Shown here: positions 1 through 5,983 of the stretch, one piece after another
How the letters are laid out: each line of letters begins with the position of its first letter
Position numbering within the stretch: position 1 is the stretch's first letter
Source of the DNA: Candidatus Fervidifonticultor sextus
GTDB taxonomy: Bacteria > Sysuimicrobiota > Sysuimicrobiia > Sysuimicrobiales > Humicultoraceae
DNA length: 64,000 nucleotides
Assembly (NCBI GenBank): GCA_031459875.1
Contig: JAVKHQ010000008.1
Location: 34,354-98,353, forward strand
Direction of reading: 5' to 3'
Notes under the pieces: model-generated
What the model was told of the DNA's origin: nothing
The model's database searches: none
Seen by the model: only the letters and a program-made list of their open reading frames with translations
Translations under genes and position numbers: made by a program

Positions 1-2
1 GC

Positions 3-713
3 GAGTTCCTCATCGACGCCATGAACGTCTCGCGCTACCTGCTCCCCCACGTGCTGTGCCTGTCCACGAGTTCGCCGTTCTGGATGGGCCGGGAGACCGG
101 GCTGAAGTCCTACCGGAGCATCATCTTCCGGAACTTCCCTCGCACCGGCATCCCGCGGCTGTTCCAGTCGTGGGCGGAGTTCTCCTACCTGGTGGACACC
201 ATGGTCCGGACCAACACCATCCCCGACGGCACCAAGATCTGGTGGGACGTGCGGCCGAACTGGAACTACCCCACCCTGGAATTCCGGATCTGTGACGTCT
301 GCACCCGGGTCGAAGAAGCGGCGTGCATCGCCGCCATCTTCCAGGCCATCGTGGCCAAGTGCTGGAAGTTGCGCCGCGACAACATGACGTTCCGCCTGTA
401 TCCGGCGGACCTGATCGAGGAGAACAAGTGGCGGGCCGTCCGCTACGGCCTCGACGGCAAGATGATCGACTTCGGCAAGCAGCAGGAGCTCCCGGCGCGC
501 CATCTGATCCGGGAGATGCTGGAGTGGTTCATCGGGGACGTGGTGGATGAACTGGGCAGCCGCCCAGAGGTCAACTACGCCTACCGGATTCTCGAAGAGG
601 GGACCAGCGCCGACCGCCAGCTCGCCACCTACCGGCGCACCGGCGACCTGAACGCAGTCGTGGACCGGCTGATCCGTGAGACCGCCGAAGGCGTGGAGGG
701 CGAGTCACCCTGA
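3..713 (+). CDS. Carboxylate-amine ligase, YbdK/GCS2 family (5'-partial)
   Basis: Frame is open from the window edge. Motifs [24 protein letters not shown] and [13 protein letters not shown] are typical of YbdK-like glutamate-cysteine ligase 2. Confidence 0.9.
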
Positions 714-827: not shown

Positions 828-1526
828 GTGGAGGCCATGACAGATCGCAGGGCGCTGTTGCGGCGCGTTGTCCTGTTCAGCTCACTCAGTGACGAGAGGC
901 TGGCGGTGCTGGAGGCCGGCCTGCGCCGACACACCTACCGGAGCGATACGACGATCTTCCACAAGGGCCAGGATGGAGACGCGCTCTACCTCATCGAGTC
1001 GGGCCGGGTGCGCATCTTTCTGCAGACGGAAGCCGGAGAAGAACACACCCTGGCGTTGCTCGGGCCGACGGACTTCTTCGGCGAACTGGCGCTGCTCGAT
1101 CAGCTTCCCCGGTCGGCCAGTGCCGAGGCGGTGGAGGACTCGGTGCTCTATACACTGGGCCGAGCGGACTTCCAGCGGGAACTCGCCCGCGCCCCCGATC
1201 TGGCCATGGCGCTGCTGGCGGCCCTTGGCGCCCGACAGCGGCGCATGACCGAGTATACGGCATCGCTCGCTCTGCAGGACGTCGGCGGGCGGCTGGCTCA
1301 CCTGCTCCTCGATATGGCCGAACGGCACGGCCATCAAGAGGACGGGCTCGTCATCGATCTCCACGTGACCCAGGCGGAGCTGGCCCGCATGATCGGCGCG
1401 ACCCGCGAGCGGATCAACCGGGCGCTGGCTGCCTTCAAGGCTGCAGGTCTCATCCAGATGCGGGGACGTCGGATCGTCATCACAAGTCCCCAACGGTTGC
1501 GCGGGCGAATGTGGCGAATGTCCTGA
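828..1526 (+). CDS. Crp/Fnr-family transcriptional regulator (cNMP-binding type)
   Basis: cNMP cassette FFGELALL...PRSA; C-terminal HTH TQAELARMIGATRERINRAL. Start is GTG 828 or ATG 837. Confidence 0.93.
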   Translation: MEAMTDRRALLRRVVLFSSLSDERLAVLEAGLRRHTYRSDTTIFHKGQDGDALYLIESGRVRIFLQTEAGEEHTLALLGPTDFFGELALLDQLPRSASAEAVEDSVLYTLGRADFQRELARAPDLAMALLAALGARQRRMTEYTASLALQDVGGRLAHLLLDMAERHGHQEDGLVIDLHVTQAELARMIGATRERINRALAAFKAAGLIQMRGRRIVITSPQRLRGRMWRMS

Positions 1527-1631
1527 GGCCCACAGGGTGCTCATCCGCGGAATGCGGCCGCCGAAGGAGACGGGCGCCCGTCCCCTCCGGCCCGCACGCG
1601 GAGCGACGCGGTGGCGCCGCGCCCGCGGGTG

Positions 1632-1808
1632 TTAGCTCGCCACGGGCGGCCGGATCTCCTCGCGCGGCCCCTCGGGCGTGTCGTTCGTCAGCGCCACGGC
1701 CGGCGACCGGATCTCCTCGCGCGGCCCTTCCACGTCCGCGACGGTGGTGCGGGGAAGCGCCGAGAACATCAGGCCGCTCAGCACGACGGCCGCTATCAAC
1801 TTGTTCAT
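1632..1808 (-). CDS. Small secreted peptide (58 aa) with duplicated EGPREEIR motif
   Basis: RBS GAGGTG 7 nt before ATG 1808. MNKLIAAVVLSGLMFSALPRTTVA is a Sec-type signal. The mature part DVEGPREEIRSPAVALTNDTPEGPREEIRPPVAS carries the motif twice. Confidence 0.75.
   Translation of the reverse strand: MNKLIAAVVLSGLMFSALPRTTVADVEGPREEIRSPAVALTNDTPEGPREEIRPPVAS
1650..1727. repeat. 21-bp direct repeat CCGGATCTCCTCGCGCGGCCC x2 (57-bp period)
   Basis: Identical copies at 1650-1670 and 1707-1727 encode the repeated peptide core. Confidence 0.95.
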
Positions 1809-1878
1809 TGTGGTGCACCTCTTCCATCGAATTGGTGGTCTGTCGCCGAGAGAAAAGCGGATCGACCACCTGGTTCTC

Positions 1879-1944
1879 AGTGTAGGCGCTGGGCGCCCAA
1901 TCACCTGTGCGCGACCGCACAAAGTTCCAGTGAAATTGGTCACT
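1879..1944 (-). promoter_or_regulatory. Putative Crp-activated promoter of the peptide gene: -10 TACACT plus two CRP-like palindromes
   Basis: Minus-strand TACACT at 1884-1879. TGTGC-N6-GCACA at 1906-1921 (centre -41.5) and AGTGA-N6-TCACT at 1929-1944 (centre -64.5). CRP consensus is TGTGA-N6-TCACA. Confidence 0.6.
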
Positions 1945-3344: not shown

Positions 3345-3430
3345 GCCGGGATGGCGGAACTTGGCAGACGCGCACGCTTGAGGGGCGTGTGGGGTTTCCC
3401 GTGGGGGTTCAAATCCCCCTCCCGGCACCA
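3345..3430 (+). tRNA. tRNA-Leu (anticodon GAG)
   Basis: Acceptor GCCGGGA/TCCCGGC, discriminator A and encoded CCA. Anticodon arm CACGC-TTGAGGG-GCGTG, long variable arm, T-loop GGTTCAAATCC. Confidence 0.97.
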
Positions 3431-4310: not shown

Positions 4311-5327
4311 ATGCGCAGAGGTCTTGTTGCAGTCTTAACGGTGCTTGTCGCGACTCTTGCGGTGCTCGGGTCCATGCCGCGTGGTGCGGCCGCCGCCACC
4401 ACGTGGACGGTGAGGGCGGGGACGTCGCGCGACAACCAGGCCCTTCAGGCGCTGCTGTTCCTGCCCAAGGCGATCACGATCAATGAGGGCGATACGGTCC
4501 AGTGGGCGCTGGGAGCGGCCGACCATACCATCTATTTCTCAGCCGGGCAAAAACTGCCGGACCTGATCGTTCCGGGCCGGGCGAAGGGCGAGTTGCTCTG
4601 GAACCCGGTGGTCTTCTTCCCATCTCCCCGGAAGGCCTACGACGGCTCCGGGCCGCACAGCGGGGGGGCCCTGATCGGGGCCGACCCGAAAGCACCCAAG
4701 ACCTACGCGGTCACCTTTACGAAGGCCGGCACGTACGCGTACGTCTGCCTGTTCCACCCGGGCATGGAGGGTACGGTCACCGTCCAGCCGGCTGGCAGCG
4801 CGTATCCCAAGACCCAGGCCGAGTACGACCAGATCGCGGTGCAGGAGGCGCGGGCGGCGCTGGCCAGGGCTGAGGACCTCATGAAGTCGAACACGCCAGT
4901 GGTGACCGGCCAGCCGGGCAGGCGCACCTACACGCTGAACATGGTGGGCACGGCGAAGGATCCCGTCTCCCTCTACCGCTTCCCGGCACAGCGGCTGGAG
5001 ATCCGACGGGGCGAGACCGTCACGTGGGTCATGAAGGATCCCGCCGAACTGCATACGGTGACGTTCGGGGCCAAAGATCCGTTCGAAATCGTCACGATGA
5101 AGCCGCAGCCCCAGGGGCCCCCGCTGCTGCTGGTGAACCTGCGGTCCATGAACCCGGCCGGCGGCACGGTGCACAAGGGACCCGGCTTCTACAACTCGGG
5201 CTTCATGTTCACGGCGGGTCCGGGCGCGAGGCGCTACTCCCTGACCTTCACGCGCAGTGGCACGTACGAGTATGAGTGCACGATCCACGACCCCTTCGGC
5301 ATGAAGGCGACGATTGTCGTGAGGTAG
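4311..5327 (+). CDS. Secreted protein with two cupredoxin (type-1 Cu) domains
   Basis: Signal peptide. Site 1 is DHTIYF...YVCLFHPGM and site 2 is LHTVTF...YECTIHDPFGM. Confidence 0.88.
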   Translation: MRRGLVAVLTVLVATLAVLGSMPRGAAAATTWTVRAGTSRDNQALQALLFLPKAITINEGDTVQWALGAADHTIYFSAGQKLPDLIVPGRAKGELLWNPVVFFPSPRKAYDGSGPHSGGALIGADPKAPKTYAVTFTKAGTYAYVCLFHPGMEGTVTVQPAGSAYPKTQAEYDQIAVQEARAALARAEDLMKSNTPVVTGQPGRRTYTLNMVGTAKDPVSLYRFPAQRLEIRRGETVTWVMKDPAELHTVTFGAKDPFEIVTMKPQPQGPPLLLVNLRSMNPAGGTVHKGPGFYNSGFMFTAGPGARRYSLTFTRSGTYEYECTIHDPFGMKATIVVR

Positions 5328-5332
5328 GGGGT

Positions 5333-5983
5333 ATGCTGGCCGGCCTCGACGGGGCGGGCGCACAGCGCCCGCCCCGCAAGCCTCTCGGTGCGGCGCTGGT
5401 CGCGGCGCTGGTTGTGGTCGTCGCCGGGGCGATGCGTTTCGGGGGTCCGGCGCCTCCGATCTGGGGCGCGCCGGCCGGCGCCGCCAGCGCGGAGGCGACC
5501 GCCCCGGACTTTGCGTTGATCAACCAGGACGGCCAGCGGGTCACGCTGCGCCAGTTTCTCGGCAAGATCGTCCTGATGAACTTCATCTACACCCACTGCA
5601 CGGACGTCTGCCCGCTGGCCCAGTTGAAACTCGCCAGGGTCCAGGAGGACCTCAAGGCCCGCGGGTGGTTTGGCACCCGGGTGGTCTTCCTTTCGGTGAC
5701 CTTCGACCCCGCACGTGACACGCCCGCTGTGATGAAGGCGTATGCCAGGCGTTTCCGGGCCGACCCGGCCGGCTGGCACTTCCTCACCGGCCCGCCTCAC
5801 GTGGTGGACCGGGTCCTCAAAGCCTACAGAATACCGGTGCGCGCGGTCGGGGCGACCGGCTCCTTCGAGCACGCCCTCCCCACTCTGGTGATCGACGGGC
5901 GGGGCGTGGTGCTCGGGCACTACGAACCCGACTTCACGCCTGCCAACGTCGCCCGCGACCTGGCCCGCCTGCTCGGGCCCTGA
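5333..5983 (+). CDS. SCO1/SenC copper chaperone
   Basis: N-terminal TM anchor, FIYTHCTDVCP (CxxxC), DPARDTP, conserved His in FEHA. Confidence 0.93.
   Translation: MLAGLDGAGAQRPPRKPLGAALVAALVVVVAGAMRFGGPAPPIWGAPAGAASAEATAPDFALINQDGQRVTLRQFLGKIVLMNFIYTHCTDVCPLAQLKLARVQEDLKARGWFGTRVVFLSVTFDPARDTPAVMKAYARRFRADPAGWHFLTGPPHVVDRVLKAYRIPVRAVGATGSFEHALPTLVIDGRGVVLGHYEPDFTPANVARDLARLLGP

What the first reader, a model, noticed from the sequence alone, without database searches (positions are those of the whole stretch)
828..1944. Candidate peptide-signalling module: Crp regulator plus a Crp-box-driven secreted peptide with a duplicated core
Seen: a 58-aa minus-strand ORF with a good RBS, a Sec signal (likely cut after TVA) and a 34-aa mature part carrying EGPREEIR twice, each copy preceded by an Asp and followed by xP..VA. 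It converges on a Crp-family gene that keeps the cNMP pocket (GE...RS) and the CRP-type recognition helix (RExxxR). Known: signal peptide plus short processed core is the layout of Phr/PapR/AimP pheromones, and repeated cores occur in multi-core RiPP precursors. Those normally sit beside an RRNPP receptor or maturases, and neither is present here. Inference: a cNMP/Crp-controlled exported peptide signal of a type I do not recognise.
Basis: partly seen in the sequence, partly recalled or inferred. Interest (0 to 1): 0.8.

Follow-up and report, generated by a model that had tools for sequence, protein, structure and literature searches.

The report
Crp-controlled orphan repeat-pheromone gene cassette
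A tiny gene for a likely exported peptide with two copies of one eight-residue motif sits in a cassette with a cyclic-nucleotide-type regulator gene that likely switches it on; the motif resembles the predicted cell-to-cell signal peptides of this little-known hot-spring and soil phylum, but no receptor gene lies beside it, so it would be a signal gated by a second messenger.

Summary
The 58-aa ORF belongs to an undescribed family: 15 stand-alone precursors with a signal-peptide-like start and 2-4 copies of A|D-x-E-G-P-R-E-E. The same unit starts five fasciclin proteins. 'IR' is not conserved.

A palindromic Crp-type box lies 21 nt before a -10-like hexamer, which is class II activation geometry (2 such sites in 3.05 Mb). 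crp, peptide and both boxes form a 1.1-kb cassette, likely moved horizontally within the genus.

No receptor or maturase gene travels with it. The genome does hold four HTH-TPR (RRNPP-like) regulators, two without a propeptide. The core scores like the C-terminal octamers of the phylum's receptor-adjacent propeptides (top 0.08-1% of background); the spacers do not.

Best reading (0.5): a multi-copy RRNPP-like pheromone precursor, uncoupled from its receptor and placed under cNMP-Crp control. Export, processing, binding and the receptor are all untested. It fails RRNPP membership on adjacency.

The scan had noted RRNPP-like pairs in this genome and phylum before; a sequence look-up for this peptide was blank.

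The parts
829..1943 (.). crp + peptide + promoter cassette, likely horizontally shared within the genus
   Evidence: Local alignment with G003 runs 829-1943 at 997/1105 identity and stops there. 4-fold-site divergence from G003 is 0.16 for crp against 0.44-0.59 for secG, cupredoxin and the HTH-TPR gene. G001 and G005 have GCS2 directly before secG.
837..1526 (+). Crp/Fnr-family regulator (ATG 837; GTG 828 is an alternative start)
   Evidence: PF00027 + PF13545. GE..RS and RERINR present; Met-Thr where CAP has T127/S128. Below the NCBIfam CRP equivalog cut-off, 105.5 vs 266 bits.
1527..1634 (-). GC-rich hairpin between the convergent genes; likely a shared terminator, though it has no U-tract
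   Evidence: MFE -71 kcal/mol, z -3.5. Conserved in G002 and G003. The terminator scan found none.
1632..1808 (-). 58-aa precursor: predicted signal peptide plus two D-x-E-G-P-R-E-E units
1737..1808 (-). Predicted Sec signal peptide, residues 1-24, ending T-V-A
   Evidence: Sequence features. The first core follows Ala in 19 of 22 family proteins. Export is untested.
1713..1736 (-). Core copy 1 (DVEGPREE), predicted mature unit
1656..1679 (-). Core copy 2 (TPEGPREE, with Asp one residue further upstream), followed by a 7-aa tail
1816..1821 (-). Ribosome-binding site GAGGTG
   Evidence: kept in G002 and G003
1879..1884 (-). -10-like hexamer TACACT; there is no good -35
   Evidence: The sigma-70 scan found no full promoter, as expected of an activator-dependent one.
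1906..1921 (.). Crp-type box 1 (TGTGC-N6-GCACA), centred at about -41.5 from the inferred start: class II position
   Evidence: 21 nt before TACACT; 2 such sites in 3.05 Mb. Half-sites are kept in G002 and G003, and both G003 changes fall in the spacer.
1929..1944 (.). Crp-type box 2 (AGTGA-N6-TCACT); a second site for the peptide promoter or a relic of the divergent cupredoxin promoter
   Evidence: 15 of 16 bases identical in all three genomes. In G003 it lies 21 nt before TATACT ahead of a divergent cupredoxin gene.

Best explanation
The small gene likely encodes a multi-copy peptide-pheromone precursor of the RRNPP-like kind used in this phylum, which has no receptor gene beside it and is likely switched on by the neighbouring Crp protein when a cyclic nucleotide is present. 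Shown in the sequence: the gene, its family, the 2-4 repeated A|D-x-E-G-P-R-E-E units, the conserved boxes and -10 spacing, and the crp-peptide cassette. Inferred steps: (1) one of the six class III cyclases makes cAMP or cGMP; (2) Crp binds box 1 at -41.5 and activates the peptide gene; (3) Sec exports the precursor and signal peptidase cuts at Ala24|Asp25; (4) a periplasmic or extracellular protease cuts after the Ala that ends each hydrophobic spacer and trims the tail, releasing acidic units that start D-x-E-G-P; (5) these return through a family-5 peptide ABC transporter and bind an HTH-TPR regulator encoded elsewhere. The best candidate receptor is the propeptide-less G000:C1:224170, whose close relative L170 has a propeptide ending A|DPNLPEGS. 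Whether the product is the 8-mer or a 14-19-mer that keeps its spacer is open.
For: Family: 15 stand-alone precursors with 2 (6), 3 (6) or 4 (3) cores. Among 47 distinct units, Asp at -2 is found in 43, Ala at -3 in 35 and the last two Glu in 44 each; E, G and R were fixed by my search pattern. Frame test: dN/dS 0.39 against 0.82-2.8 in the other frames, on 17 base changes. Promoter: class II geometry at 2 sites in 3.05 Mb; -41.5 is the class II position (PMC5957442, passages). Boxes with at most 1 mismatch lie within 1.5 kb of crp orthologues at 20 in 106 kb, against 9 in 215 kb further out and 12 in the 3.05-Mb genome. RExxxR is present in 30 of 30 orthologues and G[ED]..RS in 30 of 30. Six class III cyclases are in the genome. 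Lineage context: HTH-TPR homologues in 79 of 94 genomes; 17 of 31 receptor loci examined have an adjacent signal-bearing propeptide, three with a duplicated terminal unit. A matrix built from their 15 distinct C-terminal octamers ranks DPEGPREE in the top 0.08% and D[VIAR]EGPREE in the top 1% of 78,524 background 8-mers that follow Ala, while the family's spacers score as background (median 0.64). Intragenic duplication of the autoinducer and orphan receptors are known in Rap-Phr (PMC5199041, passages). The family-5 peptide-binding model has 42 matches in the genome, 40 over cut-off.
Against: No HTH-TPR gene lies on contig C66 or in the G001-G003 loci, so the defining adjacency is absent. The candidate orphan receptor is in all six genomes of the genus, including G004, which has no motif. 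The lineage's receptor-adjacent units are C-terminal and mostly end in Gly-Gly; here the last core keeps a 7-8-aa tail in 13 of 15 precursors and ends Glu-Glu. The core is almost invariant across divergent precursors, whereas the receptor-adjacent peptides vary. The same unit heads fasciclin proteins, which no known RRNPP system does (my knowledge). The octamer matrix rests on predicted peptides, and part of the match may be D/G/P/E composition. Only 1 of the 27 other crp-orthologue loci shows the same box-to-TAnnnT spacing. The crp link is one shared cassette, and the context of the 12 other members is unknown.
Confidence: 0.5

Rival explanations
1. The product is not a diffusible signal. It is a Crp-regulated, disordered envelope micro-protein whose acidic unit is a binding or sorting tag for a periplasmic partner, and the same tag is fused to fasciclin proteins.
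For: The unit stands directly after the signal peptide of 5 fasciclin proteins (1-2 copies), and a degenerate form heads the G005 fasciclin. P0012/P0008 and P0024/P0010 have identical longest-contig lengths (2674 and 4978), which suggests the peptide and fasciclin genes are neighbours there (indirect). The core is near-invariant and the tail is kept. In S. meliloti a Crp-like regulator drives a neighbouring periplasmic protein of unknown function (PMC5498481, passages).
Against: The G000 fasciclin lacks the motif and no fasciclin was found in G002 or G003 (84% and 88% complete), yet these three carry the peptide. The core matches the lineage's propeptide termini. Every internal core keeps a small residue before Asp, like a cut site.
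Confidence: 0.25
2. It is a pheromone whose receptor is the TPR domain of a STAND-type class III cyclase: peptide activates cyclase, cNMP activates Crp, and Crp activates the peptide gene, giving autoinduction through a second messenger.
For: Cyclase or STAND genes lie within 5 kb of crp orthologues in 15 of 34 loci; 8 of 10 scanned carry cyclase + ATPase + TPR domains. In G009 a Crp box, a small signal-bearing ORF and a cyclase-ATPase-TPR gene lie in a row. Small signal-bearing ORFs lie near crp in 8 of 34 loci, 5 of 31 without this family.
Against: None of the three peptide cassettes has a cyclase within the DNA read. All six genomes of the genus have cyclases, with or without the peptide. 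There is no binding evidence.
Confidence: 0.1
3. The variable hydrophobic spacers and tails (for example I-R-P-P-V-A-S) are the active peptides, and D-x-E-G-P-R-E-E is only the conserved protease-recognition spacer.
For: The last tail is held at 7-8 aa in 13 of 15 precursors, and Pro at its third position is found in 35 of 47 units. PapR7 is a hydrophobic heptapeptide (abstract listing of PMC6568020).
Against: The spacers score as background against the lineage's propeptide termini and instead resemble the stretch just before them. Spacers vary within one precursor.
Confidence: 0.07
4. It is a multi-core RiPP precursor modified by the neighbouring GCS2 ligase and circularly permuted ATP-grasp, or by a distant maturase.
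For: GCS2 (and in G002 a CP_ATPgrasp_2 match, under the cut-off) lie upstream of crp. The cores are repeated.
Against: GCS2 sits before secG without the cassette in G001 and G005, and the G003 cassette has no such neighbour. The precursor has a Sec-type signal rather than a leader. The core has no invariant Ser, Thr, Cys, Lys or aromatic residue.
Confidence: 0.05
5. It is a non-functional remnant of the 5' end of a fasciclin gene, expanded by slippage.
For: It shares signal-end and motif with fasciclin N-termini. The G002 repeats are identical at DNA level.
Against: 15 divergent stand-alone members keep the core, the RBS and promoter are conserved, and the coding frame shows the lowest dN/dS.
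Confidence: 0.03

Closest known systems
RRNPP(A) propeptides of Bacillota: Phr, NprX, PapR, AimP (criteria in PMC10075063; duplicated Phr units and orphan Raps in PMC5199041; passages read)
   Same: Small Sec-type precursor, short unit after a small residue, intragenic duplication with varying copy number, HTH-TPR proteins and peptide ABC transporters in the genome.
   Different: No adjacent receptor; promoter has Crp class II geometry; the last unit is not C-terminal; the core is nearly invariant; the unit is also fused to fasciclins; the host is a Sysuimicrobiota with an Omp85/BamA gene.
RRNPP-like propeptide + XRE-HTH-TPR pairs of the same phylum (G000 C23:7775 and C51:2753; 17 of 31 loci; predicted, untested)
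   Same: Signal, then hydrophobic spacer ending in Ala, then an acidic Pro/Gly octamer. x-P-E-x-P is shared with L173 and L185. Duplicated units occur there too.
   Different: Those end at the octamer, mostly in Gly-Gly, vary between loci, and sit directly upstream of the receptor.
Sinorhizobium meliloti Clr - smc02178 - CyaD1/D2/K (PMC5498481, PMC10127613; passages)
   Same: A Crp-like regulator activates a gene for an exported protein of unknown function through a palindromic box, fed by class III cyclases.
   Different: SMc02178 is described as a periplasmic protein without structural clues, not a repeat peptide. The Clr box is TGTT-N8-AACA, and Clr has Thr-Thr where this Crp has Met-Thr.
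E. coli CRP class II promoters (PMC5957442; passages)
   Same: Palindromic site centred at -41.5 that overlaps a poor -35; RExxxR recognition helix.
   Different: TGTGC/GCACA half-sites; ligand unknown; protein below the CRP equivalog cut-off.
Multi-copy fungal pheromone precursors and Enterococcus pheromones embedded in lipoprotein signal regions (recalled; the fungal parallel is also drawn in a passage of PMC5199041)
   Same: Several units cut from one exported precursor; a unit carried at the start of a larger exported protein.
   Different: No dibasic sites; the unit lies after, not within, the signal peptide; no sequence relation tested.

Membership tests
RRNPP system (PMC10075063 signature) | Propeptide of 10-100 aa | tested here: met
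   58 aa; family 58-101 aa
RRNPP system (PMC10075063 signature) | Sec signal peptide | tested here: inconclusive
   Basic N-region, hydrophobic core and Ala at the cut in nearly all members; no SignalP run and no export data
RRNPP system (PMC10075063 signature) | Receptor of 250-500 aa with TPRs encoded directly next to the propeptide | tested here: not met
   A profile of 28 lineage receptors finds nothing on C66 (98 kb), L021, L022 or L023; the neighbour is a 229-aa Crp without TPR
RRNPP system (PMC10075063 signature) | A TPR receptor exists in the genome (works-like, in trans) | tested here: met
   Four HTH_3 + TPR proteins of 426-478 aa open frame, two without an adjacent propeptide. The Bacillota models PF18768 and PF22871 find none
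RRNPP system (PMC10075063 signature) | Matured peptide is re-imported and binds the receptor | not testable with these tools
Multi-core RiPP precursor | Co-inherited maturase genes | tested here: not met
   The cassette holds only crp and the peptide; GCS2 is unlinked
Multi-core RiPP precursor | Cytoplasmic leader and modifiable core residues | tested here: not met
   Signal-type N-terminus; the invariant core has only D, E, G, P and R
CRP (CAP) equivalog | cNMP-binding and Crp HTH domains, GE..RS, RExxxR | tested here: met
CRP (CAP) equivalog | T127/S128 hinge pair and curated score | tested here: not met
   Met-Thr; 105.5 bits vs cut-off 266. It is a Crp/Fnr-family member with an unassigned cNMP
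Class II Crp-activated promoter | Palindromic box centred at -41.5, overlapping a weak -35 | tested here: met
   Box ends 21 nt before TACACT (22 in G003); the start site is inferred from the -10
Class II Crp-activated promoter | cNMP-dependent binding and activation | not testable with these tools
   Needs EMSA and reporter assays

The most novel reading that the evidence does not exclude
A mobile two-gene 'broadcast' cassette that couples second-messenger state to peptide signalling in a bacterium with an outer membrane. cNMP-Crp turns on a multi-copy pheromone, which is read in trans, possibly by the TPR domains of the STAND-type cyclases that cluster with this Crp clade. That would close a peptide > cyclase > cNMP > Crp > peptide loop, with fasciclins as a second, light-regulated source of the same peptide.
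Probability: 0.12. Interest if true: 0.88.

Novelty: new variant of a known kind. Interest (0 to 1): 0.58.

Why it matters
Peptide quorum sensing with cytoplasmic TPR receptors is described from Bacillota, with signal and receptor side by side (PMC10075063), and adjacency-based detectors would miss an orphan propeptide like this one. If the reading holds, a pheromone gene can be detached from its receptor, rewired to cAMP/cGMP control by a captured Crp promoter and passed between species as a 1.1-kb unit. That links a cell's inner state to what it tells its neighbours in an abundant uncultured phylum of hot springs and deep soil. It gives a direct test: one synthetic octapeptide, one promoter, one Crp and four candidate receptors, all expressible in E. 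coli. It also suggests where ligands for orphan HTH-TPR regulators may be hiding.

Tried and rejected
No paralogue in the own genome. No Pfam or NCBIfam family for the peptides. ESM Atlas: best feature score 0.84, which is chance level, and the model has pLDDT 0.28.

The metagenome scan confirmed 3 of 434 candidates; by my reading all three are chance wrong-frame matches. Viral contigs: 0 of 28. In the genome-collection pattern scan, 3 of 10 loci are true members; four others showed the motif in frames that read as non-coding and three gave no EGPREE frame. Dropped from family counts as chance or distant: P0006, P0017, P0019, P0030-P0032. P0029 and P0014 were kept only as single-unit rows; P0020 and P0033 were left out as cluster mates.

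The Bacillota receptor models RNPP_C and AimR found nothing; the RNPP_C control did not ring in B. subtilis, so that blank is weak. The GCS2/ATP-grasp maturase link was rejected. An ECF-type -35 (GGAACTT, recalled motif) is not conserved beyond GGAAC.

Expression: no RNA holder was listed. Contigs of RNA run X1 at about 87-93% identity cover crp, the intergenic hairpin and the peptide, one with an extra 54-nt unit; they come from a relative (20 of 28 listed differences shared with G003, 6 with G002). No silent-region control could be laid, so this does not show transcription.

Complex prediction of peptide with the orphan receptor was not available, so there is no verdict. A maximum-likelihood tree run timed out; a FastTree tree was used. 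The gene context of the JGI/ENA/Logan members could not be fetched.

Literature: the motif strings gave one unrelated paper (listing only). Searches listed nothing that describes this family or a Crp-driven orphan propeptide. The library is open-access only, and supplements were not read.

Full report
Observation. The window lies on contig C66 of a 3.05-Mb, 70% GC genome. The minus-strand ORF 1632-1808 encodes 58 aa, with a GAGGTG site, a signal-like first 24 residues and EGPREEIR twice. It converges on a Crp/Fnr gene with cNMP-binding and Crp HTH domains. A stable GC hairpin separates them (z -3.5). The repeat is not chance (272 of 200,000 shuffles give even a 5-mer repeat). Named GTDB records that carry the same motif pair are titled Ca. 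Fervidifonticultor (L081, L082, L084), a genus of Sysuimicrobiota/CSP1-3 (PMC11604079, passages). The genome has one Omp85-family gene, so Sec export likely ends in a periplasm.

The gene is real and has a family. Among 94 genomes of the phylum, a D-x-EGPREE pattern and a family profile hit 4 genomes, all of this genus. G002 has three copies and G003 two, each beside a 92-93% identical crp; G001 has two copies at the start of a fasciclin. Profile searches of public proteins added 12 more stand-alone precursors from JGI, ENA, Logan and NCBI records, for 15 in all: six with 2 cores, six with 3, three with 4, spaced 14-19 residues apart. Five fasciclins carry the unit right after their signal peptide. 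Over 47 distinct units from 22 proteins, Ala at -3 is found in 35, Asp at -2 in 43, Pro in 46 and each final Glu in 44; E, G and R were fixed by my pattern. The two residues after EE vary, so the core is D-x-E-G-P-R-E-E and not EGPREEIR. The last core keeps a 7-8-residue tail in 13 of 15 precursors. Between G000 and G003 the peptide frame has dN/dS 0.39 against 0.82-2.8 for the other five frames, on only 17 base changes. More distant single-unit relatives occur in G022 and G015.

Crp control is well supported by anatomy. Box 1 (1906-1921) ends 21 nt before TACACT, which puts its centre at -41.5 from the inferred start, the class II position (PMC5957442, passages). That geometry occurs at 2 sites in the whole genome. 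Both boxes, the -10 and the RBS are kept in G002 and G003, with the box-1 changes confined to the spacer and homology to G003 ending just outside box 2. In G003, box 2 has the same geometry toward a divergent cupredoxin gene. Around 34 loci of this Crp clade, near-consensus boxes occur at 20 per 106 kb within 1.5 kb of crp, against 9 per 215 kb further away and 12 per 3.05 Mb in G000. All 30 orthologues checked keep G[ED]..RS and RExxxR, but have a hydrophobic residue at the CAP T127 position (CAP T127/S128 and Clr T140/T141 from PMC10127613, passages), so cAMP versus cGMP is open. G000 has six class III cyclases. Against generality: only 1 of the 27 other orthologue loci showed the same box-to-TAnnnT spacing.

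The linkage is one mobile cassette. G000 and G003 align over 829-1943 at 90%. crp differs at 0.16 of 4-fold sites, whereas secG, cupredoxin and an HTH-TPR gene differ at 0.44-0.59. G001 and G005 have GCS2 directly before secG, so in G000 and G002 the cassette was likely inserted there, and the G003 copy sits near integrase, transposase and restriction genes (those three labels are my reading of the translations). This shows that crp, peptide and boxes travel together and that GCS2 is an accidental neighbour. It also means the three cases are not independent.

What the peptide resembles. A scan for small signal-bearing ORFs found 18 in G000. Two lie directly upstream of XRE-HTH-TPR genes (C23:7775, C51:2753), the RRNPP layout defined in PMC10075063 (passages). 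Two more such regulators have no propeptide (C1:224170, C23:12791 minus strand). Homologues are in 79 of 94 genomes. Of 31 receptor loci examined (28 aligned, plus three added), 17 have an adjacent propeptide that ends in an acidic Pro/Gly-rich stretch after a small residue, and three of these repeat the unit. A matrix from the 15 distinct terminal octamers places DPEGPREE in the top 0.08% and the other common cores in the top 1% of 78,524 background 8-mers. Two deviant cores rank at 7-8%, and the spacers rank as background. In a FastTree tree the orphan receptors of this genus group with L170, whose propeptide ends Q-F-A|DPNLPEGS, though deep support is poor. Duplicated autoinducer units and orphan receptors are both known in Rap-Phr (PMC5199041, passages). 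The genome is rich in family-5 peptide-binding proteins (42 matches).

What does not fit. No receptor gene lies on the 98-kb contig or in the other cassette loci, so this is not an RRNPP system by definition. The candidate orphan receptor is also in G004, which lacks the motif. The core is near-invariant, internal and ends Glu-Glu, unlike the variable, terminal, mostly Gly-Gly units beside receptors. Its presence on fasciclins, and the probable adjacency of peptide and fasciclin genes in two metagenomic contigs (inferred only from equal contig lengths), allow a binding-tag role instead. The matrix test uses predicted peptides and may partly reflect composition. Expression is not shown: contigs of a relative in RNA run X1 cover crp and a three-copy allele, but no silent-region control could be laid. 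Binding could not be modelled.

The bolder reading. Cyclase or STAND genes lie within 5 kb of this Crp clade in 15 of 34 loci, a signal peptidase gene within 2 kb in 8, and other small signal-bearing ORFs near crp in 5 of 31. In G009 a Crp box, a small exported ORF and a cyclase-ATPase-TPR gene lie in a row. A loop in which the peptide acts on a TPR cyclase is therefore not excluded, but none of the three cassettes has a cyclase nearby and all genomes of the genus have cyclases.

Verdict. Real, undescribed in the searches made (open-access library, listings only, supplements unread), and best read as a Crp-gated, receptor-uncoupled, multi-copy variant of the phylum's RRNPP-like propeptides. 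My odds: exported Crp-controlled precursor about 0.85; RRNPP-like pheromone read in trans 0.5; envelope tag 0.25; cyclase loop 0.1. Earlier notes of this scan described the receptor-adjacent pairs in this genome and phylum; I had found those pairs before reading them and do not count them as support. A sequence look-up for this peptide returned nothing. Interest 0.58.

Noticed in passing
G000:C23:7775-9249 and C51:2753-4401; L170, L173-L176, L178, L180, L182-L185, L187, L188, L193, L195: RRNPP-like pairs of a 40-51-aa signal-bearing propeptide and an XRE-HTH-TPR regulator are common in this phylum (17 of 31 loci examined); L185, L193 and L195 repeat the terminal unit.
   Followed up: partly
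L142, L145, L150, L152, L154, L155, L156, L163: A signal peptidase I gene lies within 2 kb of the crp orthologue in 8 of 34 loci, and in those inspected a near-consensus Crp box sits just upstream of it: possible cNMP control of signal peptidase.
   Followed up: partly
L135-L138, L141, L143-L146, L148, L155, L159-L161, L064: This Crp clade clusters with zinc ribbon/class III cyclase/ATPase/TPR (STAND-type) genes (15 of 34 loci) and with cupredoxin genes (10 of 34).
   Followed up: partly
L135:1219-1413, L139:5742-5939, L140:4430-4645, L141:464-625, L142:829-990, L094:384-581, L102:1399-1605: Other small signal-bearing acidic or basic ORFs, several convergent on crp or downstream of a Crp box; L094 and L102 are distant relatives of the peptide studied.
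   Followed up: partly
G000:C22:30200-31814; L005/L021 (G001); L032 (G005): Fasciclin genes lie divergent from a MerR-type regulator that reads like CarH/LitR (label recalled, not scanned) in G000 and G001. The G001 fasciclin has two motif copies, G005 a degenerate one and G000 none.
   Followed up: partly
L164 (G000:C1, about 222700-224100): A transposase-like gene separates the orphan HTH-TPR gene from its upstream neighbours in G000; relatives have a hisZ-like and a TrpR-like gene there and a Gln-tRNA synthetase gene downstream (labels from my reading).
   Followed up: no
window 1-713 and L022:1149-3627: A circularly permuted ATP-grasp-like gene followed by a GCS2 ligase lies between tpi and secG in several genomes of the genus, unlinked to the cassette.
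   Followed up: partly
window 3345-3430 and 4311-5983: A tRNA-like gene (reads as tRNA-Leu; not scanned) followed by a two-domain cupredoxin and an SCO-like gene; in G003 the cupredoxin homologue is directly divergent from the peptide and shares its Crp boxes.
   Followed up: partly
G000:C7:14692-19821: A second cNMP-binding, Crp-like gene lies about 0.9 kb upstream of a 1134-aa STAND-type cyclase.
   Followed up: no
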